A program made the translations under genes and the position numbers. Of a stretch of 24,000 nucleotides of DNA, positions 8,055 to 19,145 are shown piece after piece. The stretch covers positions 8,277 through 32,276 of the forward strand of contig CAYYED010000022.1 of NCBI GenBank assembly GCA_964470785.1, given 5' to 3'. The notes under the pieces are model-generated. The model did no database searches. It was not told the DNA's origin and saw nothing but the letters and a program-made list of their open reading frames with translations. The first letter of the stretch is position 1. Every line of letters begins with the position of its first letter. Origin of the DNA: an uncultured Candidatus Saccharibacteria bacterium (GTDB taxonomy: Bacteria > Patescibacteriota > Minisyncoccia > Minisyncoccales > PEYH01).

Positions 8055-9074
8055 ATGATAAAAATTGCTATCAATGGCTTTGGCCGAATCGGCCGGCTCA
8101 CTTTTCGCCACATTCTAAAGAATCATCCTGATATGGAGGTAGTGGCAATCAATGACTTGGGAGACCCCAAAATTTTGGCGCATTTGCTTAAATACGATAC
8201 TTCTTACGGCATTTACTCCAAAAAAGTGCGGCTTGGAGATGGCGAGTTTTTTGTAAACGGCAGTATTCGGGAAAAAGCAATTAAACTGCTTAATGAAAGG
8301 GAGCCGGAAAACCTTCCTTGGAAAAAACTGGAAGTGGATATTGTTTTGGAATGCACCGGTGTTTTTAGAGACAGAGAGGGGGCAGGGAAACACCTTAAAG
8401 CAGGAGCAAAATTTGTCATAATTTCTGCGCCGGCAAAAGATAATGGTATCCCCAGTTTTGTTTTAGGGGTTAATGAGGACGAGCTTGATATAGCAAAAAA
8501 TAATATTATAGATATGGGTTCTTGCACTACCAATTGCCTTGCTTCGGTTGCCAAAGTATTAAACGATAACTTTGGCATTGAAAAGGGTTTTATGACTACA
8601 ATCCATAGCTACACCAATGACCAAAGCATTCTTGATTTGGCCCATAAGGACTTGCGCCGGGCGCGCTCGGCAGCAGAAAACATTATTCCTACCACTACCG
8701 GCGCGGCAAAAGCAATTGGAAAAGTTATTCCTGAATTAAGGGGCAAGATAGGCGGAATGGCCGTAAGAGTGCCTACGCCCACCGTTTCCTTAATAGACTT
8801 GGTTTGTGTTTTAAAAAAAACGGCCACTGCTGAAGAAATAAATTATGCTTTTAAGCAAGAGTCGCAGAAAGAAAATTACAAAGGAATTTTAGGAATAGAA
8901 GACGCGCCTTTGGTTTCTTCTGATTATAAGGGCAATACGTTTTCTGCTATTGTAGATTCTGCTTATACTTCGGCTAATAAAAATTTAGTTAAAGTTCTTG
9001 CTTGGTATGACAATGAATACGCTTATGCCTGCCGCTTAGCCGAGTTCGCCGAATATGTCGGTAAGAAACTCTAA
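8055..9074 (+). CDS. gap: Glyceraldehyde-3-phosphate dehydrogenase (type I)
   Basis: KIAINGFGRIGR Rossmann motif, catalytic SCTTNCLA, and WYDNEYAY near the C-terminus. Confidence 0.95.
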   Translation: MIKIAINGFGRIGRLTFRHILKNHPDMEVVAINDLGDPKILAHLLKYDTSYGIYSKKVRLGDGEFFVNGSIREKAIKLLNEREPENLPWKKLEVDIVLECTGVFRDREGAGKHLKAGAKFVIISAPAKDNGIPSFVLGVNEDELDIAKNNIIDMGSCTTNCLASVAKVLNDNFGIEKGFMTTIHSYTNDQSILDLAHKDLRRARSAAENIIPTTTGAAKAIGKVIPELRGKIGGMAVRVPTPTVSLIDLVCVLKKTATAEEINYAFKQESQKENYKGILGIEDAPLVSSDYKGNTFSAIVDSAYTSANKNLVKVLAWYDNEYAYACRLAEFAEYVGKKL

Positions 9075-9122
9075 TTGTAGGTTGTCGTTTGTAAAGTTAA
9101 TTTATTGTTCGAGTTCATCGAG

Positions 9123-9150
9123 AACTACATAATTATTATTGTAGTTTTTT
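9123..9150 (+). terminator. Possible intrinsic terminator of gap
   Basis: AACTACA...TGTAGTT 7-bp AT-rich stem followed by a T run at 9145-9150. The stem is weak. Confidence 0.35.
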
Positions 9151-9164
9151 CTTGCCCCAAACTA

Positions 9165-9193
9165 TTGACAAATAATTGATAGTGTGCTATAAT
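9165..9193 (+). promoter_or_regulatory. Consensus extended -10 sigma70 promoter P1
   Basis: TTGACA at 9165-9170, 17-nt spacer ending in TGC, TATAAT at 9188-9193. Confidence 0.75.
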
Positions 9194-9237
9194 GTAATTG
9201 TCATAAAATGAGAAATCAAGAAAATAGACAAAGGGTC

Positions 9238-9266
9238 TTGACAAGAAATGGATAATATGATATAAT
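9238..9266 (+). promoter_or_regulatory. Consensus extended -10 sigma70 promoter P2
   Basis: TTGACA at 9238-9243, 17-nt spacer ending in TGA, TATAAT at 9261-9266. It lies exactly 73 bp after P1 and shares TATAATGTAATTGTC(A/G)TAAA with P1. Confidence 0.75.
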
Positions 9267-9310
9267 GTAATTGTCGTAAAGTGAAAAAAGAAAAAATAGG
9301 TTAGAAACTC

Positions 9311-9339
9311 TTGACAAAAAAAGGATAGTATGATATAAT
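9311..9339 (+). promoter_or_regulatory. Consensus extended -10 sigma70 promoter P3
   Basis: TTGACA at 9311-9316, 17-nt spacer ending in TGA, TATAAT at 9334-9339. It lies exactly 73 bp after P2. Confidence 0.75.
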
Positions 9340-9345
9340 ACAAAC

Positions 9346-9702
9346 AGAAAGAAAAAGAGGAAGAAGTAAAAAGTTCTATAAAACTAAATATAATGAAGAA
9401 GAGAGAGTCGCTGCGCATTTGCGTGGCGTAACATAAGCTTAGCTCAATGGTTAAATTTAGCTACAATTTCCCGGTTAAATTTAACTATTGAACCAGAAAG
9501 GCGACTCTCTTAAAGAAGTCGCCTTTCGTGGTTTAAAAAAACAAGGTTTAGGCAAGAAAGATGGAGAAGAGAGAGTCGACTCGGGAGAAGGATACCGGCG
9601 AACAGCTTCGGCCCGCCGCCCTTCTCGGACTAAAAGTCCTTTCCGGGTTGTAAAAAATCTTCTCTATCTTTCTCTCCTGAACAATAGGAGATAGTTTTTT
9701 AC
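9346..9702 (+). ncRNA. Structured leader or candidate sRNA downstream of P1-P3, ending in a hairpin plus T6
   Basis: Start is predicted from P3. Mutually exclusive helices: 9402-9411:9501-9510 versus 9497-9505:9518-9526. G-U-containing hairpin at 9411-9428. Hairpin TCTCCT/AGGAGA (9673-9691) followed by TAG and T6 (9695-9700). No family recognised. Confidence 0.4.
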
Positions 9703-9911
9703 AGCTCTTTGATAATACGAAAATTAGCGGAAAATTCGGTTTCGTCGCTTCTTGTTGAGAGCGCAGAGGATATTTTCAATTAAAGTATCTTACGCGCTCT
9801 TTGATACAAGAAGAGTTGGCAAAACCGGCGGCCAAAGAACTGCTGGTATTTCACGCCCACGAGACTATTCTTCGGGATAAATCCAAGTCTCTCGGGCAAG
9901 AAGGAGGAGAA

Positions 9912-10466
9912 ATGAAATTATATAGGATTGCCTCACCCGGATCCTCTCCGGCTTTGATGAAATTGGAGAGGGAGGAAGGAAAGCCGGTGGCGAACATTAC
10001 CATCGGCGAGAGCGGTCGCGGCCGAACGCAGGCAATTATCCCCATTATCGGGAAAGGTTCCAAAGTTCAGGTGAAGAAGACGGACGAAGGAGTTGTCCTC
10101 GTCCGCGGGGAGTGGAACGACGAAGGTCGCTGTATGGCCGTCATCAACGCGGTGGGTTCTTACGACCGCTACAGGTTGTATAAAATCAACGATGCCCAAG
10201 GCGTCCAGACCATCGCGTCCGGCACGATCGCTTTCGGGCAAGCCGGACGCACCAATATGGGAGAGGAAGCCCTCGCAATCCTCTCGCCGGGCGCGGAGTT
10301 CCGACTCAACTCCAAATTCGCGTCCACTTGGTATAAGTGGACCGGAAAGGAGTGGATTGTGGAAACTCCGCTGGAGAGGGTAGCCCGCTTGACTTTGCAA
10401 GAAATTGAGCAAGGGGGGGCGATTGGCTATGAAAACTATACACATAGCCCTCACCCTCCGCGGTGA
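9912..10466 (+). CDS. Orphan protein ORF1 (184 aa, beta-rich with C-terminal helix by eye), no family recognised
   Basis: Perfect SD AAGGAGG at 9901-9907, 4 nt before ATG 9912. GC-rich third codon positions, unlike the host genes. Protein-like composition. Stop TGA at 10464-10466. Confidence 0.7.
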   Translation: MKLYRIASPGSSPALMKLEREEGKPVANITIGESGRGRTQAIIPIIGKGSKVQVKKTDEGVVLVRGEWNDEGRCMAVINAVGSYDRYRLYKINDAQGVQTIASGTIAFGQAGRTNMGEEALAILSPGAEFRLNSKFASTWYKWTGKEWIVETPLERVARLTLQEIEQGGAIGYENYTHSPHPPR

Positions 10467-10896
10467 CCGCGTCGAGAATGGGATATTGGTCAGCAATGGT
10501 CAGATTCCGTTCAATCCCCGCTGGGGGATGACGCGTCATAACACTGGACTGCTCGCTAGCACTCCCTCTCCCGATGGCAACTTGGACAAAGTCCATGTGG
10601 CCATCGTGGATGAAGGAATTGTACTGGTTCCTTGCGAGGCAACCCCTCAAAAGGAACTGGTGCTGATTCAGCAGTACACCCCGGGCGCCGGGGGCAAGCG
10701 TTGGCCGAGCTTCTATGTAAAGGTCGGTCCCGAGGTACGCCCACTTTCCTCTGCTTCCACAAGCGGAGGGTCGGGCGGCGAAACTTGGGTGCTTGTCTCG
10801 GCGCCGCTCGGCTGGGCGGAGAATATCGCCGCCCAGTTCATGAATGAGCGCGACTACGGCGCTCAGACCATATCCTACAAACCATCTCCGCACTAA
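10429..10896 (+). CDS. Orphan protein ORF2 (155 aa), apparent distant paralog of ORF1, overlapping it by 38 nt in the +1 frame
   Basis: ATG 10429 is preceded by a G7 tract (10413-10419) that could act as an SD. KVHVAIVDEGIVLV aligns with KVQVKKTDEGVVLV of ORF1. The ORF2 frame is open from 10384. Confidence 0.65.
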   Translation: MKTIHIALTLRGDRVENGILVSNGQIPFNPRWGMTRHNTGLLASTPSPDGNLDKVHVAIVDEGIVLVPCEATPQKELVLIQQYTPGAGGKRWPSFYVKVGPEVRPLSSASTSGGSGGETWVLVSAPLGWAENIAAQFMNERDYGAQTISYKPSPH

Positions 10897-10950
10897 GTGG
10901 GGATCCCGCTAATCTCAACTCCAGTTCGAGGGTCTGGATTAACAAAACCC

Positions 10951-11004
10951 TCTCTGTTGGTAAGTGTGTACTTACCCTGATGAGTCCGAAAGGACGAAAC
11001 AGAA
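10951..11004 (+). ncRNA. Type III hammerhead self-cleaving ribozyme; predicted cleavage between U10958 and G10959
   Basis: Stem III: 10953-10957 pairs with 10999-11003. H17 is U10958. Stem I: GGTAAGT-GTGT-ACTTACC (10959-10976). Core CUGAUGA at 10977-10983. Stem II: GTCC-GAAA-GGAC (10984-10995) with G10.1-C11.1. Core GAA at 10996-10998 and an A15.1-U16.1 pair. Confidence 0.8.
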
Positions 11005-11050
11005 ATGCTGTTTGACAATTAAATATCAAGCATATGCCTCGGGTTTTTAA

Positions 11051-11094
11051 AGGCAGGTGAGAGGAAAAAAAAGATTGTTTTTTCTCATCTGCCT
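11051..11094 (+). other. Long hairpin (17 bp including G-U pairs) downstream of the ribozyme
   Basis: AGGCAGGTGAGAGGAAA (11051-11067) pairs with TTTTTTCTCATCTGCCT (11078-11094). Three G-U pairs argue for plus-strand RNA. No trailing U run, so it is not a classical terminator. Confidence 0.5.
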
Positions 11095-11122
11095 GCGAGA
11101 GCCCGCGGGTTCCGACACATTA

Positions 11123-11190
11123 TTATTGTTCGAGTTTGATTGTTCGAGCTTGTCGAGAACTTCTCGATTCGCTCCGCTCGCTCGAAGCAT
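11123..11190. repeat. REP-like element (TTATTGTTCGAGTT...TCGAGAACT plus GATTCGCTCCGCTCGCTCGAAGC); the left part repeats 9102-9125
   Basis: TTATTGTTCGAGTT is identical at 9102-9115 and 11123-11136. TCGAGAACT is shared at 9117-9125 and 11153-11161. Confidence 0.7.
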
Positions 11191-11199
11191 TAACCCCTT

Positions 11200-11571
11200 G
11201 GGAACTTCCGAAGTTCCCGACGCAACAAGAAAATAAAATAGATAATCTTAGTAAAAGGACTTTTCCTTTAAGAAACCCTCCTTTCCTAAGTTCAGAAGAT
11301 TTCTGGATTTAGGAAAGGAGGAAAAAATGAAAGCAAAAAAATGTTTTCGCCTTTCTCGCGTCATTACGGCGCGAGAAAGGCATGAAAGATTTCTGGAACG
11401 CCTCCGCAAGGAGGCACTCCAGAGGGGATCCGGGCAGGGCCACAGCCCTGCCCGGGTAAGCGAAGTGGCTCGACTGAAGTCGAGCCACTAAAAAAAGGCG
11501 AGGAGATGTCAATCAGCACTCTGCCATCTCTTCGCCCTTCTATATTTTGATATGGAGGCCAGCCCTCCATA
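11200..11571 (+). other. Chain of eight distinct, mostly perfect GC-rich hairpins
   Basis: H1 11200-11218. H2 11277-11321 (13 bp perfect). H3 11349-11381 (14 bp). H4 11400-11415 (GCAA tetraloop). H5 11428-11457. H6 11465-11488 (10 bp perfect). H7 11497-11536 (12 bp, one G-U). H8 11551-11571. Confidence 0.7.
11327..11491 (+). CDS. Candidate 54-aa Arg/Lys-rich mini-protein (MKAKKCFRLSRVITARERHERFLERLRKEALQRG...)
   Basis: Perfect SD AAGGAGG at 11315-11321, 5 nt before ATG 11327. The SD is the 3' arm of hairpin H2, so it is sequestered. The ORF runs through H3-H6 and stops at TAA 11489-11491. It is below the ORF-track size cutoff and coding status is uncertain. Confidence 0.3.
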   Translation: MKAKKCFRLSRVITARERHERFLERLRKEALQRGSGQGHSPARVSEVARLKSSH

Positions 11572-11697
11572 AAACTCCATAAAAGTATCCAAATCTTTTT
11601 TCATAACAGATTTTCTTCTAAATTAAGGAAAATTGTTATGAGGAAGGATTGCCTGCTTTTTGAGGCAAAATCTGTCCTTCCCAGAGGAGGAGAAAAG

Positions 11698-11961
11698 ATG
11701 AGGAGATTTCCTCATACGCGGAAGTCAGCGATATGGTGGAAGCTTCCCGAGGTTCTCAGAGAAATTCTGCAGGAACTTCAGGGGCAGCCATATCGCTCCT
11801 ACCGTGACGTTAAAGGGAAACTTGATGCCACCGGCATCGAGTATCTCGCCAAGCTTAGAGGCGAGATCCCCGAATACGTCAGGATCCGAATCCCGGAGCC
11901 GGAGGGTCGTGAAGTCGATTTCTATTTCGAGTTTCACGTCACTCGCCGGGGACGGCGGTAG
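11698..11961 (+). CDS. Orphan small protein ORF3 (87 aa; alternative start 11638 gives 107 aa)
   Basis: SD GAGGAGG at 11684-11690, 7 nt before ATG 11698. Charged, helix-like sequence (WWKLPEVLREILQELQGQPYRSYRDVKGKL...). No family recognised. Confidence 0.55.
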   Translation: MRRFPHTRKSAIWWKLPEVLREILQELQGQPYRSYRDVKGKLDATGIEYLAKLRGEIPEYVRIRIPEPEGREVDFYFEFHVTRRGRR

Positions 11962-11962
11962 G

Positions 11963-12173
11963 AGACGCTGCTAGTCCGGAGCCCCGAATAGCCGGACGAA
12001 AAACCGTGAGTTTGACTCACGGCATCCAGTAGATGACACAGCGTCTGACTGGATGTTTAAGGGGCTCTTCTCCGGCCTATAAAAGGCGGATGAAAGCCGG
12101 AGACAGGTAACGCAGGACCCTGGGGATGAATATCCCAAAGTCCAACGCACTTCGGACTCCTGCACGCTTTTTT
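11963..12173 (+). ncRNA. Structured 3' region of ORF3 with pseudoknot potential, ending in a three-way stem plus T6
   Basis: Hairpins at 11974-11997, 12004-12022 and 12023-12055. AGACGCTG (11963-11970) is complementary to CAGCGTCT (12039-12046), which lies in the loop of the third hairpin. Stem 12069-12076:12096-12103. Three-way junction 12112-12163 followed by ACGC and T6 (12168-12173). Confidence 0.4.
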
Positions 12174-12328
12174 CAGCGCATCAGTTATGGCTGGTAGGTT
12201 GAAAAAAGCGAACAGAAAATATTTTTTCCTTAGCAAGCAAATAAAAGTTTTTTCCGGCTAAGATTAACCACCCTTTGGTTAAATTAAAAATTAGTAAATT
12301 ATAACTTAAATTAATGTTTTACAACACC

Positions 12329-12500
12329 GGTTTCTTTCCACGGTGCTGTTGGCAAGGAGGTAAGCAAGGTCGATGAGGTTCTGCTAAGGAAACGAGGCAG
12401 GAGAAAAACTCTCTCTTCCCTCTAATGTCTTGCTTGCACTAAACTCTTGCCGACAGCATTGTGGGAGGAAATTAAAAACAGGGCATTTGCCCTGTTTTTT
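12329..12500 (+). ncRNA. Rod-shaped candidate sRNA of about 170 nt (6S-like architecture, family unassigned) ending in an intrinsic terminator
   Basis: 28-bp closing helix 12329-12356:12446-12473 with 7 G-U pairs, which would be A-C mismatches on the minus strand. Second 9-bp helix 12360-12368:12429-12437. Asymmetric central loops. Apical hairpin 12379-12402. Terminator at 12474-12500. Confidence 0.5.
12474..12500 (+). terminator. Rho-independent terminator (A5-CAGGGC-ATTT-GCCCTG-T6), potentially bidirectional
   Basis: GC-rich 6-bp stem at 12479-12484:12489-12494, flanked by an A run and a T run (12495-12500). Confidence 0.75.
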
Positions 12501-12525
12501 GGTGTCAAAAGTTATTGTTGTTTAG

Positions 12526-12800
12526 ATTGCTTCGTCGCTCCCGCTGGTCGCTCCTCGCAATGACGAGAGGGGAAGCTGATTACCCTCGTAATGACACTTT
12601 TTCACCGTCATCCTGAGTCCCGAGCTTGCCGAGGGGCGTTGAGTCCCGAGCTTGCCGAGGGGCGAAGGATCCCGTTGTTTGCGGTAATGCCACGGGATTC
12701 TTCCCCCGCCCCCTATGCCTATGAATAATAATATGCCCCATTACCGTAAAGAAACACCAGGCCGTCTTCGGCCGCTTAGGGGGCGGGGTCAGAATGACGC
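12526..12800. repeat. GC-rich REP-like cluster closing the island
   Basis: 12526-12566 copies 2709-2749. GAGTCCCGAGCTTGCCGAGGGGCG is tandemly duplicated (12615-12638 and 12641-12664), and its inverse family is at 19296-19330. A 12-bp inverted repeat CCCCGCCCCCTA / TAGGGGGCGGGG lies at about 12704 and 12776. Confidence 0.85.
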
Positions 12801-12832
12801 GGAGAAATTTGATAGAGATTGGTCTCTATCTT

Positions 12833-12862
12833 TTGTTAAAAAAAGAGGATCTGTGGTATAAT
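12833..12862 (+). promoter_or_regulatory. Probable acd promoter (TTGTTA-N18-TGG-TATAAT)
   Basis: Extended -10 TGGTATAAT ending at 12862. The ATG lies 8 nt downstream, giving a leaderless-like layout. A perfect 8-bp inverted repeat GATAGAGA/TCTCTATC sits just upstream at 12811-12830. Confidence 0.5.
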
Positions 12863-12870
12863 AATCTAAT

Positions 12871-13497
12871 ATGCTGTTAAGTGTGGAAAAAACAAAAAAG
12901 CTTTTAGAGAAATATAATATTCCGCTGGCAAAAGGAATAATTATTAATTCTAAAAGCGAGGCGTTAGAATTTGCTAAGGAAACCGGGTTTCCTGTAGTTT
13001 TAAAATTATCATCGCCAAAAATTATCCATAAAACAGAAATTAAAGGGGTAATTGCCAATATTGACGATGAAAATACTCTGTTAAAAGAATGCGAAAAAAT
13101 TTCTCTTTTAGCCAAACAAAAAGGTTCAAAAACTCTTATGCAAAAAATGGAGCAAGGATTGCAATTGATTGCCGGCGCCAAATACGACCCGGTATTTGGA
13201 CCAGTTATTATGTTTGGATTGGGCGGAATTTACGTGGAGATATTCAAGGATATTTCTCTCCGCATTGCGCCGATTAAAGAGAAAGATGCTCAAGAAATGA
13301 TGCAGGAAATAAAAGGATATAAATTGCTGGAAGGATTCCGGGGCAAAGAAGGAATAAATAAGGAGGCAGTAAAACAAATTCTTTTAAATCTTTCTAATCT
13401 TGTTCAAAATGAAAGCAATATTAAGGAGATTGATTTTAACCCCATTATTGCCAATAAGCAAAAGGCGACCGTAGTAGATGCTAAGTTAATATATTGA
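12871..13497 (+). CDS. Acetate--CoA ligase (ADP-forming), ATP-grasp (beta-like) subunit
   Basis: ATP-grasp_5-type sequence: KKLLEKYNIPLAKG...GFPVVLKLSSPKIIHKTEIKGV...GPVIMFGLGGIYVE...IDFNPI. Confidence 0.8.
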   Translation: MLLSVEKTKKLLEKYNIPLAKGIIINSKSEALEFAKETGFPVVLKLSSPKIIHKTEIKGVIANIDDENTLLKECEKISLLAKQKGSKTLMQKMEQGLQLIAGAKYDPVFGPVIMFGLGGIYVEIFKDISLRIAPIKEKDAQEMMQEIKGYKLLEGFRGKEGINKEAVKQILLNLSNLVQNESNIKEIDFNPIIANKQKATVVDAKLIY

Positions 13498-13532
13498 TTC
13501 CTTTGTCGACTTTCAAAGTCGACAGCAATGAT

Positions 13533-14888
13533 ATGAATTATATTTCTTTTGAAAAAATCTTTTTCCCTAAAAGCATAGTCATTATCGGAGCTACGGACAG
13601 AAAAGGTTCGGTGGGCAGGGGATTGGTAGAAAACGCTTTTCAGGGGAAAAAGCAGAGAAAAGTATATTTGGTTAATCCGAACAGAAAAAAGGTCTTCGGG
13701 AAAAAAGTTTACTCAAGCATAAATGATATTAAGGAAAGAATAGACCTTGCCGTGATTGCTGTTCCGGCAAATGTTGTTTTAGGAACGGTAAAGCAGTGCT
13801 GTCAAAAATGGGTAGGTTCAATTATTATTGTTTCTGCCGGTTTTGCCGAGATTGGGGAAAAAGGCAAAGAGCTTCAGGAAAAAATCAAACGAGAATGCGC
13901 TAAAAAAAATATTCCTTTTATTGGACCAAATTGCTTGGGAATTATTAGGCCCTCTATTGTGTTAAATGCCTCTTTTGCCCCGCTGGTTCCTAAATCCGGA
14001 GGTATTACTCTTATTTCCCAATCCGGTGCATTGATTGATTCTATTATTGCCCTTTCTAAAGAAAAAAATTACGGGTTTGCCAATGTTATTTCTTACGGCA
14101 ATGAAGCAGGCATAACCTTGCCTGATTTTTTAAACTGGGCCGGACAAGACAAGGAAACAAAAGTAATTGCCTTATATCTGGAAGGATTAAAAGACGGCAG
14201 AGAATTTCTTAAAATAGCCCAAAGAATCACCCAAGAAAAACCAATTGTTGTTTTAAAAGGCGGTAAAACAGAAATAACCAGAAAAGCGGTTTCTTCCCAT
14301 ACCGGGGCTTTGGCCGGACAAAGTAAGGTCTATTCAGCCGCTTTTAAGCAATCCGGGATTATTGAAGTGAACTCTGTTCAGGAATTATTAGATGTAAGCA
14401 AGGCACTTTCTTGGCAGCCCAAATGCAAAAACGGAATTGGAATAATAACCAATGGAGGCGGAGCCGGTATCCTATGCACCGATTATTGCGGGCAAGCAGG
14501 AATTAATCTTCCCGGAATGTCAAGAGAGGTTGTAAAAAAATTAGAAAAGTCAAAAATAATGCATCAGGGATTTTCTAAAAGCAATCCCTTGGACATTATT
14601 GGAGATGCGCTGTCAGAAAGATATCAGTTGGCAATTGGAGCAATGTTATCGCAGAAAAACATTTATGGATTAATAGTTATCCAGACCCTTCAGATTATGA
14701 CCGAACCGGAAAAAAATGCTAAAATAATTGTAAAAATCAAGCAAAAGCATAAAGAAAAACCGATTATTAGCATATTCATGGGCGGAAGTTTAGACGGAAA
14801 AGCACATCAAATTTTAGAGCAAAACCAAATACCGAATTATCCGGATCCTTTAAGAGCGGTGAAGGCGATGAGAGCACTAGTTAGATAA
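13533..14888 (+). CDS. Acetate--CoA ligase (ADP-forming), CoA-binding/ligase-CoA (alpha-like) subunit
   Basis: FFPKSIVIIGATDRKGSVGRGL CoA-binding start, GPNCLGI, and SQSGAL...SHTGALAG (phospho-His region). I prefer ATG 13533 over the ORF-track TTG at 13494, which overlaps the upstream stop and a GTCGAC...GTCGAC palindrome. Confidence 0.8.
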   Translation: MNYISFEKIFFPKSIVIIGATDRKGSVGRGLVENAFQGKKQRKVYLVNPNRKKVFGKKVYSSINDIKERIDLAVIAVPANVVLGTVKQCCQKWVGSIIIVSAGFAEIGEKGKELQEKIKRECAKKNIPFIGPNCLGIIRPSIVLNASFAPLVPKSGGITLISQSGALIDSIIALSKEKNYGFANVISYGNEAGITLPDFLNWAGQDKETKVIALYLEGLKDGREFLKIAQRITQEKPIVVLKGGKTEITRKAVSSHTGALAGQSKVYSAAFKQSGIIEVNSVQELLDVSKALSWQPKCKNGIGIITNGGGAGILCTDYCGQAGINLPGMSREVVKKLEKSKIMHQGFSKSNPLDIIGDALSERYQLAIGAMLSQKNIYGLIVIQTLQIMTEPEKNAKIIVKIKQKHKEKPIISIFMGGSLDGKAHQILEQNQIPNYPDPLRAVKAMRALVR

Positions 14889-15110: not shown

Positions 15111-18100
15111 ATGCCTATCAAAAACAAACAGCTCATCTTCTGGTTTAACAAACTTACCCATAAAGACGTCCCTTTTGTGGGAGGAAAAAACGCTTCCTTG
15201 GGAGAAATGTATCAGCATTTAATCAAAAAGGGTATTAATATCCCCAACGGCTTTGCTTCTTCTTCTTATGCTTATTTTTATTTTTTAAAGAGTAAGGGCA
15301 TTTGGGATAGAATAGAAAAAATTGTAAAAACACACAATTTAAATGATGTGGCGCAGCTGCAAACCGCAGGTAAAAAAATCAGAAGCCTTATTTTAAAAAC
15401 CAACCTGCCCGAGGATTTGGAAAAAGAGATAATAATCGCCTACAAGAAACTTTCTAAACATTATAAAGAAAAAAATACCGATGTGGCCGTACGAAGCTCT
15501 GCGACAGCAGAAGACCTGCCCAGCATTGCTGCCGATGAAATGGTCTTGGTAAAAATGGGAGACAAAATAAAATACCTTGAAGTAGAAAAGGTATTTGACC
15601 TTCAGCAACAGGTAGAAAACCAGGGCCAACTCTTTGTTCCTTCTTTAAATAATGAGGGAAAAATAGGATGGCACAAAGCAATAGAAGTTTATAAACACCC
15701 TGCTCATAATAAAAAACTTTATAAAATCACTACCCGTTCTGGAAGAGAAATTACTATAACCAAAGATCACTCTCTTCTTACGCTAGACTCCGAAACCCTT
15801 AACATAAAAATATGTTCTATTGATGATGTTAACAGCTCTACCCGCGTTCCGGTAATAAAGCATCTTCCCCTTGCAGAAAAAAAACCTACGTTTTTAGATG
15901 TAGAGAAAATAATAGAATCAAGGCCAACAATAGTTGATAATAAAAGAGTAAAAATAAAACAAAAAAACACCCTTAATCAACAATATGGGTTGCCTGCAAA
16001 GATGTCTATCAATAATGATTTTGCTTATTTTCTAGGAATTTATCTGGCTGAAGGTTCAATATATGAAAAGCAAAACGCTATTGATATATATTGTGACTCG
16101 CAGGAAGTGTTGAAAAGGGTAAGAAAATTTTACAAATCAATCAACAGTTATAATCCTAATAAAATAAAAAGCAAGAGAAAGGTTAGGGTAGCTAATGCTG
16201 TTTTGGCTGCGCTTCTTCACGACATTAGTGGAAAACCTTTGCCATTTTCTGGAAAAGGAAGATCGGCAAGAACTAAACATGTACCGGATTTTATGTTTGT
16301 TCAATCCGAAAAAATTATTGGTCAATTTATAAGAGGATTATTTGATGGAGATGGTTGGATTGAACAAAGTGGTATATATTACTGTTCTTTATCTAAAAAA
16401 TTAATTGGCGGAATATCGGAATTATTGTCAATGCTGCAAATAAAACATTATCTCACCAAAAATTGCACCAACATAAGTATTCCGACAAGTGAAGCAAAAA
16501 AGTTTGAACAGCTTGTTGGTTTTGAAGAACAAGGAAAAAAGCAAAAACTAAATGCCTTGATTAATAACTATCAAACAAGAACTAAGCATCAGGATTTTAT
16601 TGAAACTTTTCCTCCTGGTAAAAAAATAACTGAATTATTAGAGGCAAAGTTAAAACCCCGGCCACAATTACAAAAAATTAAGGTCTTTCTGTGTCCAAAA
16701 TGCGGAACAGAACTAAGAAAAAATGGTTCCTATTCTATCTACCAGAATACGATGGTAAAAATTAGCCGTTATTATTGCAAAAATTGCCACTTTAGTCCAT
16801 CTGAAAGAAGCAACCTTAATTTGCCAAGCCAGTTCACACATAGATATCTTTATTATGATAAATTAGGCAGATTTCAGAAAAACACTATTCCTTGGAACAA
16901 GGGCAACCGAAAACAGCGCTTAACCTACGGAGCTGGCTATTTAAAAAAATTGGCCGAAGAGATAAATTCTCAAGAATTACAAAAAATAACCGACGCTGAC
17001 GTGATGTGGGATAGAATTGTAAAAATTGAACCAATCAAATATTCGGGTTTTGTGTATGATTTTGTGGTTCCAAAAACTCAAAATTTTGCTGCAGGCATAG
17101 GAAGTGTTATTACTCACAACACGGCTTCTTTTGCGGGTCAGCAGGAGACATATCTAAATATTAAAGGAGAAAAGGAGCTTTTGCTTGCTTTTAAAAAATG
17201 TATTGCTTCTTTGTTTACCGACCGAGCTATTTCTTATCGGGAACAAAAAGGTTTTGACCATTTAGAAATTGCCCTTTCCGTGGGGGTGCAAAAAATGGTG
17301 CGTTCAGATATCGGGTCCTCGGGCGTAATGTTTACTTTAGACACGGAAACCGGTTTTAAAAACATTGTACTCATTAATTCTATCTGGGGGATAGGAGAAA
17401 TGATTGTTCAGGGAAAAATCACGCCTGACGAATTTCTTGTTTTTAAGCCGACCCTGACCTTGCCGAAGGGTCGTCAAAAATATCAGCCAATTATTGTCAA
17501 AAATTTGGGCAGAAAGACAAAGAAATTTGTTTACGGTAAAAAAGGCGGATTAAAAGAAGTAATTGTTTCTCCCGGTAAACAGCTCCAATTTTCATTAAAT
17601 GATAAAGATATCCTTACTTTAGCCAAATGGGGAGTAATAATTGAAGAACATTATTCTAAAATCTGGAATAAATGGATGCCCCAAGATATTGAATGGGCAA
17701 AAGATGGAAAGACCGGAGAATTATTTATTGTGCAATCAAGGCCGGAAACCATACATGCAGTAAAGAAAGAAGCGATTTATGAAAAATATGAAGTAGACAC
17801 TAAAAAAGAACCAATTGTGAAAGGCATTGCCATTGGCGATAAAATCGGCCAAGGTAAGGCAAATATCATTCCGAGCGTGAAAAATATGAGAAGGTTTAAA
17901 CAAGGAGATGTTTTGGTAACTAATATGACAGACCCGGACTGGGTGGTGATTATGAAAATGGCATCAGCCATTGTAACTAATGAGGGTGGTAAAAGCTGTC
18001 ATAGCGCAATTGTTTCCCGGGAGCTGGGTATTCCCTGTATTGTTGGAACACGGAACGCTACTAAAATTATAAAAAACGGACAATATATTACCGTGGACTG

Positions 18101-19145
18101 CACCCAAGGGTTAAATGGCAAAGTTTTTGAAGGAAAGGTGCCCTATAAGGTAGAGAAAATTAATCTTAAAAAAGTGCCGAAGTTAAAAACAAAAATTTCT
18201 GTCAACATTGGAGCTCCGGAACTGGCATTTAAGACATCATTTTTGCCTGTGGACGGAGTCGGCCTGGCAAGAGAAGAGTTTATTATTGCCCAAAAAATTC
18301 AAGTCCACCCCTTGGCGCTTTACCACTATAAAAAGCTCAAAAAACAAAGCGCGAAAAACAAAGAACTAAAACCGCTAATTAAGAAAATAGAAGAAATCAC
18401 CGTAGAGCATAAAGACAAAAAAGAATTCTTTATTAAAGAATTGGCAGAAGGCATTGCCCAAATTGCTGCCGCTTTCTGGCCCAATGAAGTAATTGTCAGG
18501 TTTTCTGATTTTAAGACCAATGAATATGCCCAATTGGTGGGAGGAGAATTATATGAACCCAAGGAAGAAAACCCTATGATTGGCTGGCGAGGGGCCTCCA
18601 GATATTATGACCCTGCGTTTGCTCCGGCTTTTAGAATGGAGTGTATGGCAATTAAAAGAGTAAGAGAGGTTTTTGGCTTAAAAAATGTAACCGTAATGAT
18701 TCCTTTCTGCCGCACCACCGAAGAAGGGGAAAAGGTGCTCAAAATTATGAGTAAACACGGGCTTAAAAGAGAAAAAGGGGCACAGGGGCTAAAAGCGTAT
18801 GTAATGTGTGAAATTCCTTCTAACATTCTCTTGGCAGACAAATTTTTAGACATTTTTGACGGAATGAGCATTGGCTCCAACGACTTGACTCAATTGACCA
18901 TGGGCTTAGACAGAGACAATGCCACTCTTGTCCATATTGCTGATGAAAGAAATCCAGCTGTTTTAGAGCAGTTAAAAACAGTAATCAGAAAATGCCGACA
19001 GAGAAAAAAATATGTTGGCATTTGCGGAGATGCGCCTTCTACTTTTATTGACTTTGCCCGATTTTTGGAAAAAGAAAAAATAGATGCCCTATCCTTAAGC
19101 CCTGACGCGGTGATTAAAACTTTACTGCAGATAAATAAAAAATAA
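15111..19145 (+). CDS. ppsA: Phosphoenolpyruvate synthase (pyruvate, water dikinase) interrupted by a 533-aa intein
   Basis: N-extein ends VAVRSSATAEDLP and the C-extein resumes TASFAGQQETYLNI. Phospho-His domain GGKSCHSAIVSRELGIPCIVG. PEP-utilising C-terminus SIGSNDLTQLTMGLDRDN. The two exteins together total 811 aa. Confidence 0.95.
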   Translation: MPIKNKQLIFWFNKLTHKDVPFVGGKNASLGEMYQHLIKKGINIPNGFASSSYAYFYFLKSKGIWDRIEKIVKTHNLNDVAQLQTAGKKIRSLILKTNLPEDLEKEIIIAYKKLSKHYKEKNTDVAVRSSATAEDLPSIAADEMVLVKMGDKIKYLEVEKVFDLQQQVENQGQLFVPSLNNEGKIGWHKAIEVYKHPAHNKKLYKITTRSGREITITKDHSLLTLDSETLNIKICSIDDVNSSTRVPVIKHLPLAEKKPTFLDVEKIIESRPTIVDNKRVKIKQKNTLNQQYGLPAKMSINNDFAYFLGIYLAEGSIYEKQNAIDIYCDSQEVLKRVRKFYKSINSYNPNKIKSKRKVRVANAVLAALLHDISGKPLPFSGKGRSARTKHVPDFMFVQSEKIIGQFIRGLFDGDGWIEQSGIYYCSLSKKLIGGISELLSMLQIKHYLTKNCTNISIPTSEAKKFEQLVGFEEQGKKQKLNALINNYQTRTKHQDFIETFPPGKKITELLEAKLKPRPQLQKIKVFLCPKCGTELRKNGSYSIYQNTMVKISRYYCKNCHFSPSERSNLNLPSQFTHRYLYYDKLGRFQKNTIPWNKGNRKQRLTYGAGYLKKLAEEINSQELQKITDADVMWDRIVKIEPIKYSGFVYDFVVPKTQNFAAGIGSVITHNTASFAGQQETYLNIKGEKELLLAFKKCIASLFTDRAISYREQKGFDHLEIALSVGVQKMVRSDIGSSGVMFTLDTETGFKNIVLINSIWGIGEMIVQGKITPDEFLVFKPTLTLPKGRQKYQPIIVKNLGRKTKKFVYGKKGGLKEVIVSPGKQLQFSLNDKDILTLAKWGVIIEEHYSKIWNKWMPQDIEWAKDGKTGELFIVQSRPETIHAVKKEAIYEKYEVDTKKEPIVKGIAIGDKIGQGKANIIPSVKNMRRFKQGDVLVTNMTDPDWVVIMKMASAIVTNEGGKSCHSAIVSRELGIPCIVGTRNATKIIKNGQYITVDCTQGLNGKVFEGKVPYKVEKINLKKVPKLKTKISVNIGAPELAFKTSFLPVDGVGLAREEFIIAQKIQVHPLALYHYKKLKKQSAKNKELKPLIKKIEEITVEHKDKKEFFIKELAEGIAQIAAAFWPNEVIVRFSDFKTNEYAQLVGGELYEPKEENPMIGWRGASRYYDPAFAPAFRMECMAIKRVREVFGLKNVTVMIPFCRTTEEGEKVLKIMSKHGLKREKGAQGLKAYVMCEIPSNILLADKFLDIFDGMSIGSNDLTQLTMGLDRDNATLVHIADERNPAVLEQLKTVIRKCRQRKKYVGICGDAPSTFIDFARFLEKEKIDALSLSPDAVIKTLLQINKK
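15522..17120 (+). mobile_element. Intein (533 aa) with a LAGLIDADG homing-endonuclease domain and an internal CxxC...CxxC zinc ribbon
   Basis: Block A SIAADEMVLVKMGD (Ser1). Block B TITKDHSLLT. LAGLIDADG motifs FLGIYLAEGS and FIRGLFDGDGWI. Blocks F/G VYDFVVPKTQNFAAGIGSVITHN followed by Thr at +1. Zinc ribbon CPKCG...CKNCH at about 16692-16790. Confidence 0.85.

What the first reader, a model, noticed from the sequence alone, without database searches (positions are those of the whole stretch)
10951..11004. Complete type III hammerhead ribozyme 55 nt after the ORF2 stop codon
Every invariant core position is present in the correct order for an open-stem-III hammerhead. The layout is TCTG-U(16.1)-U(17), then the predicted cleavage site, then stem I GGTAAGT/ACTTACC with a GTGT loop, then C3-U4-G5-A6-U7-G8-A9. 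Next come stem II GTCC/GGAC with a GAAA loop (G10.1-C11.1), then G12-A13-A14, then A15.1 and CAGA, which pair back to 10953-10957. Cleavage between 10958 and 10959 would trim the promoter-driven ORF1-ORF2 transcript to a defined 3' end. It would also release the downstream RNA with a 5'-OH. A competing hairpin, CAG (11000-11002) with CTG (11008-11010), could sequester the 3' strand of stem III, which would allow regulated or co-transcriptional cleavage. A hammerhead inside an orphan gene cassette in a CPR-like genome is unusual.
Basis: partly seen in the sequence, partly recalled or inferred. Interest (0 to 1): 0.8.

Follow-up and report, generated by a model that had tools for sequence, protein, structure and literature searches.

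The report
Hammerhead ribozyme ending a gene cassette
A complete self-cutting RNA (a type III hammerhead ribozyme) sits just after a conserved two-gene cassette in a CPR-type bacterial genome, where it most likely trims the messenger RNA to a hairpin-protected end; it is a new example of a known kind of bacterial and phage ribozyme, not a new kind of element.

Summary
Window 10953-11003 (+) has every invariant hammerhead core nucleotide, three perfect helices of 7, 4 and 5 bp, and U17 at 10958. Rfam Hammerhead_3 scores 46.1 bits. That is 2.4 bits below its gathering score but has E=2.5e-7 for the window. A covariance model built only from relatives in other loci scores it 68.7 bits.

The same ribozyme lies at the same place after ORF2 in three orthologous loci, at 88-99% identity against about 77% for the coding DNA, with compensatory changes. 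Related CPR loci carry 1-4 such hammerheads, all on the coding strand and between genes. Phage contigs hold the same subtype in similar arrays.

A hairpin that was not searched for abuts stem III in 15/17 CPR and 17/20 phage copies. Two 99.1%-identical loci differ only after the ORF2 stop: one has hairpin plus hammerhead, the other an intrinsic terminator.

Best reading: a self-cleaving 3'-end or intercistronic mRNA-processing module, as already proposed for clustered prophage hammerheads. Cleavage is untested. The proposed regulatory competing hairpin, the "orphan cassette" label and the claim of unusualness are not supported. Verdict: real, and a new member of a known kind.

The parts
10928..10952 (+). 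Hairpin directly abutting stem III: GAGGGT 10928-10933 with ACCCTC 10947-10952, 13-nt loop. It would remain at the 3' end of the upstream cleavage product. A possible H-type pseudoknot adds CCAG 10921-10924 with CTGG 10934-10937.
   Evidence: a hairpin of at least 6 bp ends 0-3 nt before stem III in 15/17 CPR and 17/20 phage hammerheads, against 16% of random positions. Covariation GAGGGT/ACCCTC to GAGGTT/AACCTC is seen in L042 and L046. Pseudoknot support is only weak (Fisher p=0.007).
10953..10957 (+). Stem III, 5' strand (TCTGT; U16.1 = 10957)
   Evidence: Compensatory G-C to A-U change in L012 and C to U (U-G wobble) in L017.
10958..10958 (+). Position 17 (U, cleavage triplet GUU). Predicted cleavage between 10958 and 10959, leaving a 2',3'-cyclic phosphate on 10958 and a 5'-OH on 10959.
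   Evidence: Position 17 is C in most relatives and U in the window, L013 and one phage copy; it is never G.
10959..10976 (+). Stem I (GGTAAGT/ACTTACC, 7 bp) with loop 1 GUGU (10966-10969)
   Evidence: The stem covaries fully across loci while loop GUGU is conserved.
10977..10983 (+). Core C3 U4 G5 A6 U7 G8 A9
   Evidence: invariant in the alignment.
10984..10995 (+). Stem II (GTCC/GGAC, G10.1-C11.1) with loop 2 GAAA
   Evidence: loop 2 is RAAA in nearly all relatives.
10996..11003 (+). Core G12 A13 A14, then stem III 3' strand ACAGA (A15.1 = 10999)
9912..10466 (+). ORF1 (184 aa from ATG 9912), a conserved all-beta protein of unknown function and the first gene of the cassette
   Evidence: No Pfam, NCBIfam or PADLOC hit. 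No PDB fold match.
10429..10896 (+). ORF2 (155 aa), a conserved all-beta protein of unknown function. The window copy lacks the roughly 330-nt C-terminal extension present in close relatives; a remnant of the old end, 'ggatcccgcTAA', lies at 10901-10912.
   Evidence: No PDB or BFVD fold match.
11009..11108 (+). Structures on the downstream cleavage product: a 7-bp hairpin at 11009-11032 and a long nested hairpin at 11037-11108 with no T-run. The box TGTTTGACAA at 11009-11018 resembles the 'CTTTGATAA' box that follows hammerheads or transcription starts in relatives.
9101..9126 (+). Left copy of a 26-nt direct repeat that brackets the promoter-leader-ORF1-ORF2-hammerhead block. The right copy is at 11136-11161.
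11136..11161 (+). Right copy of the 26-nt direct repeat (85% identical to 9101-9126), with a further partial copy at 11123-11136
9165..9339 (+). Three tandem perfect sigma-70-type promoters (TTGACA-17-TATAAT with TG) at 73-nt spacing, a possible source of the transcript

Best explanation
Window 10953-11003 encodes a functional type III hammerhead ribozyme transcribed with ORF1-ORF2.

As the RNA emerges, stems I and II form as local hairpins. When ACAGA (10999-11003) is made it closes the 5-bp stem III, and the core cleaves between U10958 and G10959.

The upstream product is the ORF1-ORF2 mRNA. It ends in a stable hairpin or pseudoknot (10921-10952) plus a 6-nt tail bearing a 2',3'-cyclic phosphate. 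The downstream product starts with a 5'-OH and carries the folded ribozyme body.

The hairpin-plus-hammerhead unit is therefore a self-contained mRNA 3'-end or intercistronic processing module. In sister loci the same place is occupied by an intrinsic terminator. In multi-cassette loci the module cuts a polycistronic transcript into single-cassette mRNAs with standard ends.

Shown: the sequence and structure, the conservation and covariation, the strand and position rules, the linked hairpin, and the terminator swap. Inferred: that it cleaves, that the hairpin protects the new 3' end or stacks on the short stem III, and that the effect is defined and stable mRNA ends.
For: Identity:
- All core positions are present and the pairs next to the core are Watson-Crick.
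- Hammerhead_3 gives 46.1 bits, E=2.5e-7.
- The leave-out family model gives 68.7 bits.
- 1 of 3000 shuffles gave a comparable hit.
- The isolated fold is the hammerhead junction.

Selection:
- The hairpin-plus-hammerhead block is 98.8%, 90.7% and 88.0% identical in L013, L017 and L012, while the adjacent coding DNA is 77-79% identical.
- Stem III shows G-C to A-U in L012. Stem I is wholly replaced but still complementary, and stem II shows C-G to U-A, in L042 and L046. These were found by blastn, not by structure.
- Across 12 family members 99.5% of cells are paired and 13 of 16 pairs show double changes. These members were selected by a pairing descriptor, so this count is partly circular.
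- Loop 1 GUGU at 7 bp and loop 2 RAAA at 4 bp from the core are conserved, although neither was required by the descriptor used on the CPR loci. This fits the loop-loop contacts that natural type III hammerheads need (PMC6155905).

Function:
- All 19 family hits in ORF2-bearing loci are on the coding strand.
- In the loci inspected they lie between genes. In eight loci one sits 46-106 nt after the ORF2 stop; other loci have an intrinsic terminator 25-130 nt after the stop instead.
- L017 and L014 are 99.1% identical over 2958 nt, up to 4 nt past the stop. L017 then has hairpin plus hammerhead and L014 has an intrinsic terminator.
- In L013 a 125-nt 5'UTR found after the promoter is repeated (98%) just after the hammerhead. 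In that locus the ribozyme therefore creates the same 5' end that a transcription start creates.
- The unsearched hairpin abuts stem III in 32 of 37 copies, against 16% of control positions.
- Phage contigs carry the same subtype in same-strand arrays placed about 27 nt after gene ends.
- Clustered prophage hammerheads have been shown to cleave about 2-kb polycistronic transcripts in vitro, and in E. coli for the A. tumefaciens arrangement (PMC3088659).
Against: - No cleavage data exist for this sequence or its relatives.
- The Rfam score is 2.4 bits under the curated threshold.
- The cleavage triplet is GUU, which from general knowledge of minimal hammerheads is slower than GUC. Most relatives have C17.
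- With upstream context, the nearest-neighbour minimum-free-energy structure does not contain stem III. Such models do not score the non-canonical interactions of the hammerhead core.
- The window has a single hammerhead and no recognisable cassette gene downstream, so any intercistronic role is lost here and only 3'-end formation remains.
- Many ORF1-ORF2 loci lack any hammerhead, so the ribozyme is dispensable for the cassette.
- A terminator-like hairpin at 9649-9703 lies between the promoters and ORF1, so the transcription input is uncertain.
- The protective or stacking role of the hairpin is inference only.
Confidence: 0.72

Rival explanations
1. It is a relic. The hammerhead was the boundary of a multi-cassette array whose downstream cassette has been lost. 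It may still fold or even cut, but it has no selected role in this genome.
For: The window has only one hammerhead. Nothing conserved follows it: ORF 11638-11961 has no homologs. ORF2 has suffered a roughly 330-nt deletion just upstream. U17 replaces the commoner C17. Many cassettes do without a hammerhead.
Against: The module is intact at every core position and pair. It is 98.8% identical to L013 while the neighbouring coding DNA is 77% identical. It is identical in all contigs of this population. A decaying element would be expected to show core or stem defects.
Confidence: 0.12
2. It is mainly a DNA-level cassette junction. The hairpin-plus-hammerhead sequence travels as the end of a mobile gene cassette, integron-like or recombinase-mediated, and is kept because it marks or mediates cassette exchange. 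RNA cleavage would be secondary.
For: Homology between the 99.1%-identical L017 and L014 breaks 4 nt after the stop codon, exactly where the module starts. The same module lineage follows different genes (ORF2 in the window, an upstream 256-aa ORF in L042). The cassette is a GC island, 10-19 points above its flanks, sitting in different neighbourhoods. A 26-nt direct repeat brackets the block in the window. A large serine recombinase is present in L042.
Against: Conservation follows the RNA rules (invariant catalytic core, covarying stems, strand specificity), which a DNA site would not require. No recombinase is present in the window. The direct repeats are not found in other loci.
Confidence: 0.08
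3. It processes a circular or mobile RNA. Pairs of same-strand hammerheads would excise a roughly 1.6-kb RNA that is then ligated into a circle, as with retrozymes or viroid-like agents.
For: Units of 1637 nt (L016 3280 to 4917) and 1642 nt (L042 2590 to 4232) are bounded by same-strand type III hammerheads. The stem II and loop signature is shared with two 366- and 377-nt records in the viral collection, which look like viroid-like satellite RNAs (that identification is from memory and based on length only).
Against: The window has a single hammerhead, so no unit can be excised here. The units are ordinary protein-coding cassettes with ribosome-binding sites. L013 showed a duplicated 5'UTR rather than circular overlap. 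Perreault et al. looked for circular or spliced products from clustered bacterial hammerheads and found none (PMC3088659).
Confidence: 0.04
4. It is a conditionally active ribozyme. Alternative pairing sequesters stem III, so cleavage, and with it ORF1-ORF2 mRNA fate, is regulated.
For: In-context minimum-free-energy folds replace stem III with CAG 10922-24 paired to CUG 10954-56.
Against: The alternative seen in the folds is also 3 bp and is not conserved in loci whose upstream hairpins differ. No aptamer-like conserved element adjoins the ribozyme.
Confidence: 0.03
5. It is a chance match to the hammerhead consensus.
For: The score is below the Rfam gathering threshold. Loose descriptors give about 0.007 hits per shuffled window.
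Against: E=2.5e-7. 68.7 bits with an independent family model. Conserved orthologs and paralogs with covariation.
Confidence: 0.01

Closest known systems
Type III hammerhead ribozyme (Rfam RF00008, Hammerhead_3)
   Same: Identical catalytic core (C3-A9, G12-A14, A15.1-U16.1, H17). Open stem III with closed stems I and II. Full-length alignment to the model. Stem II, loop 2 and loop 1 are as in two 366- and 377-nt viroid-like records and in phage copies.
   Different: It scores 46.1 bits against a gathering score of 48.5. It has short tetraloops on both stems. It is DNA-encoded in a bacterial chromosome rather than in a circular RNA replicon. A hairpin is fused to the 5' side of stem III.
Clustered hammerheads flanking genes in prophages (Perreault et al. 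2011, PMC3088659)
   Same: Same-strand hammerheads between genes or short gene blocks. The proposed role is processing long transcripts into gene-length mRNAs. Related loci here (L016 with 4, L042 with 3, L010 with 2) and phage contigs (L050, L057, L063 with 3 each) show exactly this layout.
   Different: The window has one copy, in a housekeeping neighbourhood with no integrase or phage genes. The hosts are CPR/Patescibacteria. The flanked genes are a previously unnamed all-beta pair and, in sister loci, Csx3, Csx20 and SAVED-type genes. The abutting hairpin is not mentioned in that paper.
Self-cleaving ribozymes in bacterial 3'UTRs (the twister reporter work and hammerhead suggestions summarised in Weinberg et al. 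2019, PMC6765202)
   Same: A ribozyme downstream of a stop codon that can set mRNA 3' ends and influence expression.
   Different: That work used engineered reporters. Here natural variation (terminator against ribozyme at the same junction) provides the argument, and no expression data exist.
Synthetic ribozyme insulators such as RiboJ (an sTRSV-derived hammerhead plus hairpin; from my own knowledge, not checked here)
   Same: It works similarly: a hammerhead standardises a transcript end and an adjacent hairpin stabilises the product.
   Different: RiboJ is engineered and sits in a 5'UTR with the hairpin 3' of the ribozyme. Here the element is natural, the hairpin is 5' of the ribozyme, and it stays on the upstream mRNA.
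Intrinsic (Rho-independent) terminators
   Same: Same position after the stop codon and the same end result: an mRNA ending in a stable hairpin. The two are interchangeable in near-identical loci.
   Different: The hammerhead forms the end by RNA self-cleavage rather than by polymerase release. There is no U-tract, and transcription can continue into the next cassette.

Membership tests
Hammerhead ribozyme, type III | Invariant core C3 U4 G5 A6 N7 G8 A9 and G12 A13 A14 | tested here: met
   CTGATGA 10977-10983 and GAA 10996-10998. Invariant in the family alignments.
Hammerhead ribozyme, type III | A15.1-U16.1 pair and H (not G) at position 17 | tested here: met
   A10999 pairs with U10957, and U10958 is position 17. 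Position 17 is C, U or A in all relatives.
Hammerhead ribozyme, type III | Three helices around the core with standard pairs next to the core (1.1-2.1 and 10.1-11.1); these are the acceptance rules of Perreault et al. 2011 | tested here: met
   G10959-C10976 and G10984-C10995. Stems of 7, 4 and 5 bp with no mismatch. Rules quoted.
Hammerhead ribozyme, type III | Topology: stems I and II closed by loops, stem III open | tested here: met
Hammerhead ribozyme, type III | Covariation supporting the helices in homologs | tested here: met
   Orthologs and paralogs found by blastn show compensatory changes in stems I, II and III. In the family alignment 99.5% of cells are paired and 13 of 16 pairs show double changes, but those members were chosen by a pairing descriptor.
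Hammerhead ribozyme, type III | Score at or above the Rfam gathering threshold for RF00008 | tested here: not met
   46.1 against 48.5 bits, E=2.5e-7. The relative L042 2590-2644 passes with 51.7 bits, while other clear relatives score 33-40 bits. The threshold is conservative for this subtype.
Hammerhead ribozyme, type III | Loop 1 to loop 2 tertiary contact needed for activity at physiological Mg2+ | tested here: inconclusive
   Loop 1 GUGU and loop 2 RAAA are conserved at fixed distances of 7 and 4 bp from the core, which is what such a contact predicts (PMC6155905). No 3D model or probing was done.
Hammerhead ribozyme, type III | Site-specific self-cleavage giving 2',3'-cyclic phosphate and 5'-OH ends | not testable with these tools
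   No biochemical or transcript-end data are available.
Clustered gene-flanking hammerheads of prophages and mobile elements (Perreault et al. 2011) | Two or more same-strand hammerheads flanking genes | tested here: not met
   The window has one copy only. The feature is met in related loci L016, L042 and L010 and in phage contigs.
Clustered gene-flanking hammerheads of prophages and mobile elements (Perreault et al. 2011) | Prophage or integrase neighbourhood | tested here: not met
   All other window genes look like housekeeping genes (FtsZ, enolase, GAPDH, ACD, PPDK, tRNA synthetases). L042 has a large serine recombinase. ORF2 relatives were not found in IMG/VR.

The most novel reading that the evidence does not exclude
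The window shows one unit of a ribozyme-punctuated cassette system in CPR bacteria and their phages, which has not been described in the literature I could search. Each unit would be a standard 5'UTR, one or two genes, a hairpin or pseudoknot and a type III hammerhead. The units would be exchangeable at the DNA level (a GC island, varying neighbourhoods, a breakpoint right at the module). At the RNA level they would be cut into uniformly ended mRNAs, with the hairpin-hammerhead acting as a terminator substitute that lets transcription run on. Sister arrays carry genes related to cyclic-oligonucleotide signalling (Csx3, Csx3-AAA, Csx20, Csx16-like, SAVED-TM). The unknown ORF1-ORF2 pair could therefore be a new defence or counter-defence module whose expression depends on ribozyme processing.
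Probability: 0.25. Interest if true: 0.6.

Novelty: new member of a known kind. Interest (0 to 1): 0.38.

Why it matters
The biological role of bacterial hammerheads is still called an open question (PMC6155905, PMC6765202). This locus adds natural genetic evidence that bears on it.
- Near-identical loci carry either an intrinsic terminator or a hairpin-plus-hammerhead at the same junction.
- A hairpin is fused to stem III in about 86% of this subtype, in both CPR genomes and phage contigs.
- One locus has the same 5'UTR placed once after a promoter and once after a hammerhead.

Together these make the hypothesis that the ribozyme is a 3'-end and 5'-end maker for cassette mRNAs directly testable with small constructs. 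The finding also extends hammerheads to CPR/Patescibacteria, for which the paper search found no report. It flags a conserved, structurally novel two-protein cassette that keeps company with Csx3, Csx20 and SAVED genes. If the finding is only what it seems, it is a well-supported extra example of a known ribozyme class.

Tried and rejected
- Other ribozyme classes or a second hammerhead in the window or in hammerhead-less sister loci. Rfam E-value scans and an unfiltered family-model scan found none.
- A circular or tandem element in L013. The apparent 1576-nt periodicity is only a 125-nt duplicated 5'UTR.
- An empty-site test for insertion of the island. Every contig with the identical GAPDH also carries the island.
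- A link between ORF1 and the N-terminus of the L042 fusion protein. The hhalign probability was 5%, so this is inconclusive.
- ORF2 relatives in IMG/VR: none.
- CRISPR-cas genes next to ORF1-ORF2 in three long contigs: none. The Csx and SAVED association is therefore limited to the multi-hammerhead loci.
- A pseudoknot upstream of the hammerhead. Statistical support is only weak.
- ORF 11638-11961 as a downstream cassette gene. It has no homologs.
- The 26-nt direct repeat as a general cassette end. It is absent from other loci.
- The papers on ribozyme-associated gene classes (PMC3867598, PMC4509812) and on 3'UTR ribozymes (PMC5785228) are not held in the library.
Full report
OBSERVATION.
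- Stem III is TCTGT 10953-10957 paired with ACAGA 10999-11003.
- U17 is at 10958.
- Stem I is GGTAAGT 10959-10965 with ACTTACC 10970-10976, with a GTGT loop.
- The core CUGAUGA is at 10977-10983.
- Stem II is GTCC/GGAC with a GAAA loop (10984-10995).
- GAA is at 10996-10998.
- The ORF2 stop codon is 10894-10896, so the element begins 55 nt downstream.

Rfam's curated threshold lists nothing in the window. With E-value reporting, Hammerhead_3 (RF00008) aligns end to end at 10951-11005 (+) with 46.1 bits against a gathering score of 48.5. The E-value is 1.6e-9 for the local stretch and 2.5e-7 for the whole window, and it is the only credible RNA-family hit. The 55-mer folds into the hammerhead three-way junction as its minimum-free-energy and centroid structure (-17.7 kcal/mol, z=-3.3, 0 of 200 shuffles as stable). 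A loose type III descriptor hit 20 times in 3000 dinucleotide shuffles of the window, and only one of those had as many base pairs as the real site.

CONTEXT. The window looks like a low-GC (about 38%) CPR/Patescibacteria chromosome segment. It carries FtsZ, enolase, GAPDH (8055-9074), an ADP-forming acetyl-CoA synthetase pair (12871-14888), an intein-containing PPDK, a sugar kinase and two tRNA synthetases.

Between GAPDH and the synthetase genes lies a 3.7-kb compositional island with GC up to 60%. From left to right it holds:
- three tandem perfect sigma-70 promoters (9165-9339);
- a very structured 360-nt leader ending in a terminator-like hairpin (9345-9712, z=-8.3);
- ORF1 (9912-10466) and ORF2 (10429-10896);
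- the hammerhead;
- a long hairpin (11037-11108);
- about 1.7 kb of GC-rich sequence with no conserved gene.

A 26-nt direct repeat (9101-9126 and 11136-11161) brackets the promoter-to-hammerhead block. No integrase, phage or cas gene is in the window.

ORF1 AND ORF2 ARE NOT ORPHANS. ORF2 has 63 homolog clusters and ORF1 has 48, almost all unnamed, from Paceibacteria, Parcubacteria, Minisyncoccales and similar metagenome-assembled genomes. The two genes are adjacent nearly everywhere. Both give confident all-beta AlphaFold2 models (pLDDT 84.5 and 91.7) with no Foldseek match in PDB or BFVD, and no hit in Pfam, NCBIfam, PHROGs or PADLOC. The pair is 10-19 GC points richer than its flanks in many genomes and sits in different neighbourhoods. 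It behaves like a horizontally mobile cassette. The window copy of ORF2 has lost the roughly 330-nt variable C-terminal extension; the old stop region survives at 10901-10912.

THE HAMMERHEAD IS CONSERVED AND RECURRENT. I fetched 47 loci through the ORF2 alignment. A structural descriptor and then a covariance model built from its hits (R1) found 19 hammerhead matches of E below 1e-8, all on the ORF2 strand, among the 20 hits listed at E up to 1 (the other is a minus-strand match at E=0.83). After removing one duplicate contig these are 17 distinct sites in 11 loci.

Three of them (L012, L013, L017) are positional orthologs of the window's copy, 46-51 nt after the full-length ORF2 stop. Their hairpin-plus-ribozyme block is 88.0%, 98.8% and 90.7% identical to the window, while the coding DNA is 77-79% identical. 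Within this set:
- L012 has a compensatory G-C to A-U change in stem III;
- L017 has a C to U change that keeps a U-G pair;
- L042 and L046, found by blastn, have a completely different but complementary stem I and a C-G to U-A change in stem II.

Over 12 family members, 99.5% of cells are paired and 13 of 16 pairs show double substitutions. These members were selected with a pairing descriptor, so I give more weight to the blastn-defined cases.

A second model (R2) built without the window or its orthologs still scores the window site at 68.7 bits. One relative passes the Rfam threshold (L042 2590-2644, 51.7 bits) and other obvious relatives score 33-40 bits. The curated cutoff is therefore simply conservative for this short-looped subtype. 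Loop 1 (GUGU, 7 bp from the core) and loop 2 (RAAA, 4 bp from the core) are conserved, although the descriptor used on the CPR loci did not require them. That is the signature expected of the loop-loop contact natural type III hammerheads need for activity at cellular Mg2+ (PMC6155905).

WHAT IT DOES. Several independent observations point to mRNA end formation.

(i) Position. In the loci inspected the hammerheads lie between genes. In eight loci a hammerhead follows the ORF2 stop by 46-106 nt. Other loci have an intrinsic terminator 25-130 nt after the stop instead.

(ii) A natural swap. L017 and L014 are 99.1% identical over 2958 nt, up to 4 nt past the ORF2 stop. L017 then continues with hairpin plus hammerhead, and L014 with a GC-rich hairpin and T-run.

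(iii) Arrays. L016 has four hammerheads, L042 three and L010 two, all on the same strand and 0.4-3.2 kb apart, delimiting single genes or gene pairs.

(iv) L013. A 125-nt 5'UTR that follows the promoter is repeated at 98% immediately after the hammerhead. Ribozyme cleavage would therefore generate the same mRNA 5' end as transcription initiation does.

(v) A linked hairpin. Every copy is preceded by a hairpin of variable, covarying sequence whose 3' arm runs straight into stem III. A hairpin of at least 6 bp ending 0-3 nt before stem III is present in 15/17 CPR and 17/20 phage copies, against 16% of random positions. In the window this is GAGGGT 10928-10933 with ACCCTC 10947-10952. An H-type pseudoknot with CCAG 10921-24 and CTGG 10934-37 is possible but only weakly supported.

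After cleavage the upstream mRNA would end in this hairpin plus a 6-nt tail with a cyclic phosphate. I infer that this protects against 3' exonucleases and/or that the hairpin stacks on the short stem III. The downstream RNA would start with a 5'-OH and the folded ribozyme.

(vi) The same subtype, with the same abutting hairpin and same-strand arrays placed about 27 nt after gene ends, occurs in IMG/VR phage contigs. Two 366- and 377-nt records in that collection, which I take from memory to be viroid-like satellite RNAs, share stem II and both loops.

All this matches what Perreault et al. described for prophage hammerheads. They showed that clustered hammerheads cleave about 2-kb polycistronic transcripts in vitro, and in E. 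coli for the A. tumefaciens arrangement, and they proposed processing into gene-length mRNAs (PMC3088659). Later reviews still list the role as unresolved (PMC6765202; PMC6155905).

CAVEATS.
- Nothing here shows catalysis.
- The cleavage triplet is GUU rather than the commoner GUC.
- With native upstream sequence the thermodynamic minimum-free-energy structure replaces stem III with a 3-bp alternative, CAG 10922-24 with CUG 10954-56. Such models ignore the core's non-canonical interactions, and the alternative is not conserved in loci with other hairpins.
- The window has one hammerhead and no conserved gene after it, so only the 3'-end role can apply here, and a relic status cannot be excluded.
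- Whether the three strong promoters feed ORF1-ORF2 is unclear, because a terminator-like hairpin lies between them.

NEIGHBOURS IN SISTER ARRAYS. In L016 the hammerhead modules follow a split Csx3-AAA/Csx3 pair and an HD-like gene. In L042 they follow a SAVED-TM gene, with a Csx20-like gene upstream and a large serine recombinase nearby. L046 has a weak Csx16-like match. Long contigs with ORF1-ORF2 but no hammerhead show no cas genes. The link to cyclic-oligonucleotide signalling is suggestive, not established.

RIVALS.
- Relic of a lost array (0.12).
- DNA-level cassette junction (0.08). The breakpoint at the module and the GC-island behaviour fit, but the RNA-type conservation does not.
- Circular-RNA excision (0.04). 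There is a single copy here, L013 is not circular, and no circles were seen by Perreault et al.
- Regulated switch (0.03).
- Chance (0.01).

VERDICT. This is a real, complete type III hammerhead: a new member of a known kind, here in a CPR chromosome. It most likely acts with its abutting hairpin as a self-cleaving substitute for a terminator, or as an intercistronic processing site, for a mobile two-gene cassette. The literature search found no report of hammerheads in CPR/Patescibacteria, and the abutting hairpin is not mentioned by Perreault et al. or in the hits of a targeted search. Absence from that library is not proof of novelty. Interest is moderate. The ribozyme itself is ordinary, while the terminator swap, the hairpin linkage and the cassette architecture offer a clean handle on the unresolved function of bacterial hammerheads.

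Noticed in passing
window 9165-9339: Three tandem 73-nt units, each carrying a perfect extended sigma-70 promoter (TTGACA, 17 nt, TG-n-TATAAT; 12/12 matches). Such an array of consensus promoters is striking in any genome.
   Followed up: partly
window 9345-9712: A GC-rich, very strongly structured RNA (minimum free energy -137.6 kcal/mol, z=-8.3) directly downstream of the promoter array. It ends in a terminator-like hairpin plus T-run (9649-9703). It has an internal repeat GAAGAGAGAGTCG (9398-9410 and 9566-9578) and alternative pairings. There is no Rfam hit and no homolog in the fetched loci. It could be an unknown small RNA or a leader/attenuator.
   Followed up: partly
window 9101-9126 and 11136-11161 (plus 11123-11136): A 26-nt direct repeat (85% identical) brackets the promoter-leader-ORF1-ORF2-hammerhead block. 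It may be an insertion footprint. It is present in all contigs of this population but in no other fetched locus.
   Followed up: partly
window 11161-12870: The remainder of the island has GC-rich patches and an orphan ORF (11638-11961) with no homolog among 5.8 billion proteins. It also has a perfect-stem hairpin at 11277-11321, a terminator-like hairpin at 12478-12500 and a tandem 26-nt repeat at 12614-12665. Its nature is unknown.
   Followed up: partly
window 10897-10912: ORF2 in the window has lost the roughly 330-nt C-terminal extension found in close relatives. The former stop region (ggatcccgcTAA) survives out of frame just after the new stop.
   Followed up: yes
window 15111-19145: The pyruvate phosphate dikinase gene carries an intein with a LAGLIDADG homing-endonuclease domain (about residues 190-670).
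   Followed up: no
L017 199-3150 against L014 1-2954: The two loci are 99.1% identical up to 4 nt past the ORF2 stop. They then diverge completely: hairpin plus hammerhead in L017, an intrinsic terminator followed by a housekeeping gene in L014.
   Followed up: yes
L013 266-390 and 1842-1966: A 125-nt 5'UTR containing a long hairpin occurs once after a promoter (ahead of ORF1) and again at 98% identity right after the hammerhead. A 'CTTTGATAA'-like box follows transcription starts, hammerheads and, in the window, the leader terminator (9707-9718 and 11009-11018).
   Followed up: partly
L016 417-3230; L042 239-1580 and 5260-6831; L046 867-1289: The genes delimited by hammerheads in sister arrays include Csx3-AAA (split), Csx3, an HD-like protein, Csx20-like, SAVED-TM and a weak Csx16-like match, with a large serine recombinase nearby. 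These are components related to cyclic-oligonucleotide signalling and ring nucleases.
   Followed up: partly
window 9912-10896 (ORF1 and ORF2); L042 2791-4161 and L046 3428-4579: ORF1 and ORF2 give confident all-beta AlphaFold2 models with no detectable fold relative in PDB or BFVD. In L042 and L046 an ORF2 domain is fused to a longer N-terminal region that may be a distant ORF1 relative (hhalign inconclusive).
   Followed up: partly
L015 5678-5779 (-); L012 2599-2680; L015 2336-2417; L016 5477-5549; L027 703-929: tRNA genes lie within about 1-3 kb of several ORF1-ORF2 cassettes, and a SAM riboswitch lies in L015. The tRNA proximity could reflect integration hot spots.
   Followed up: no
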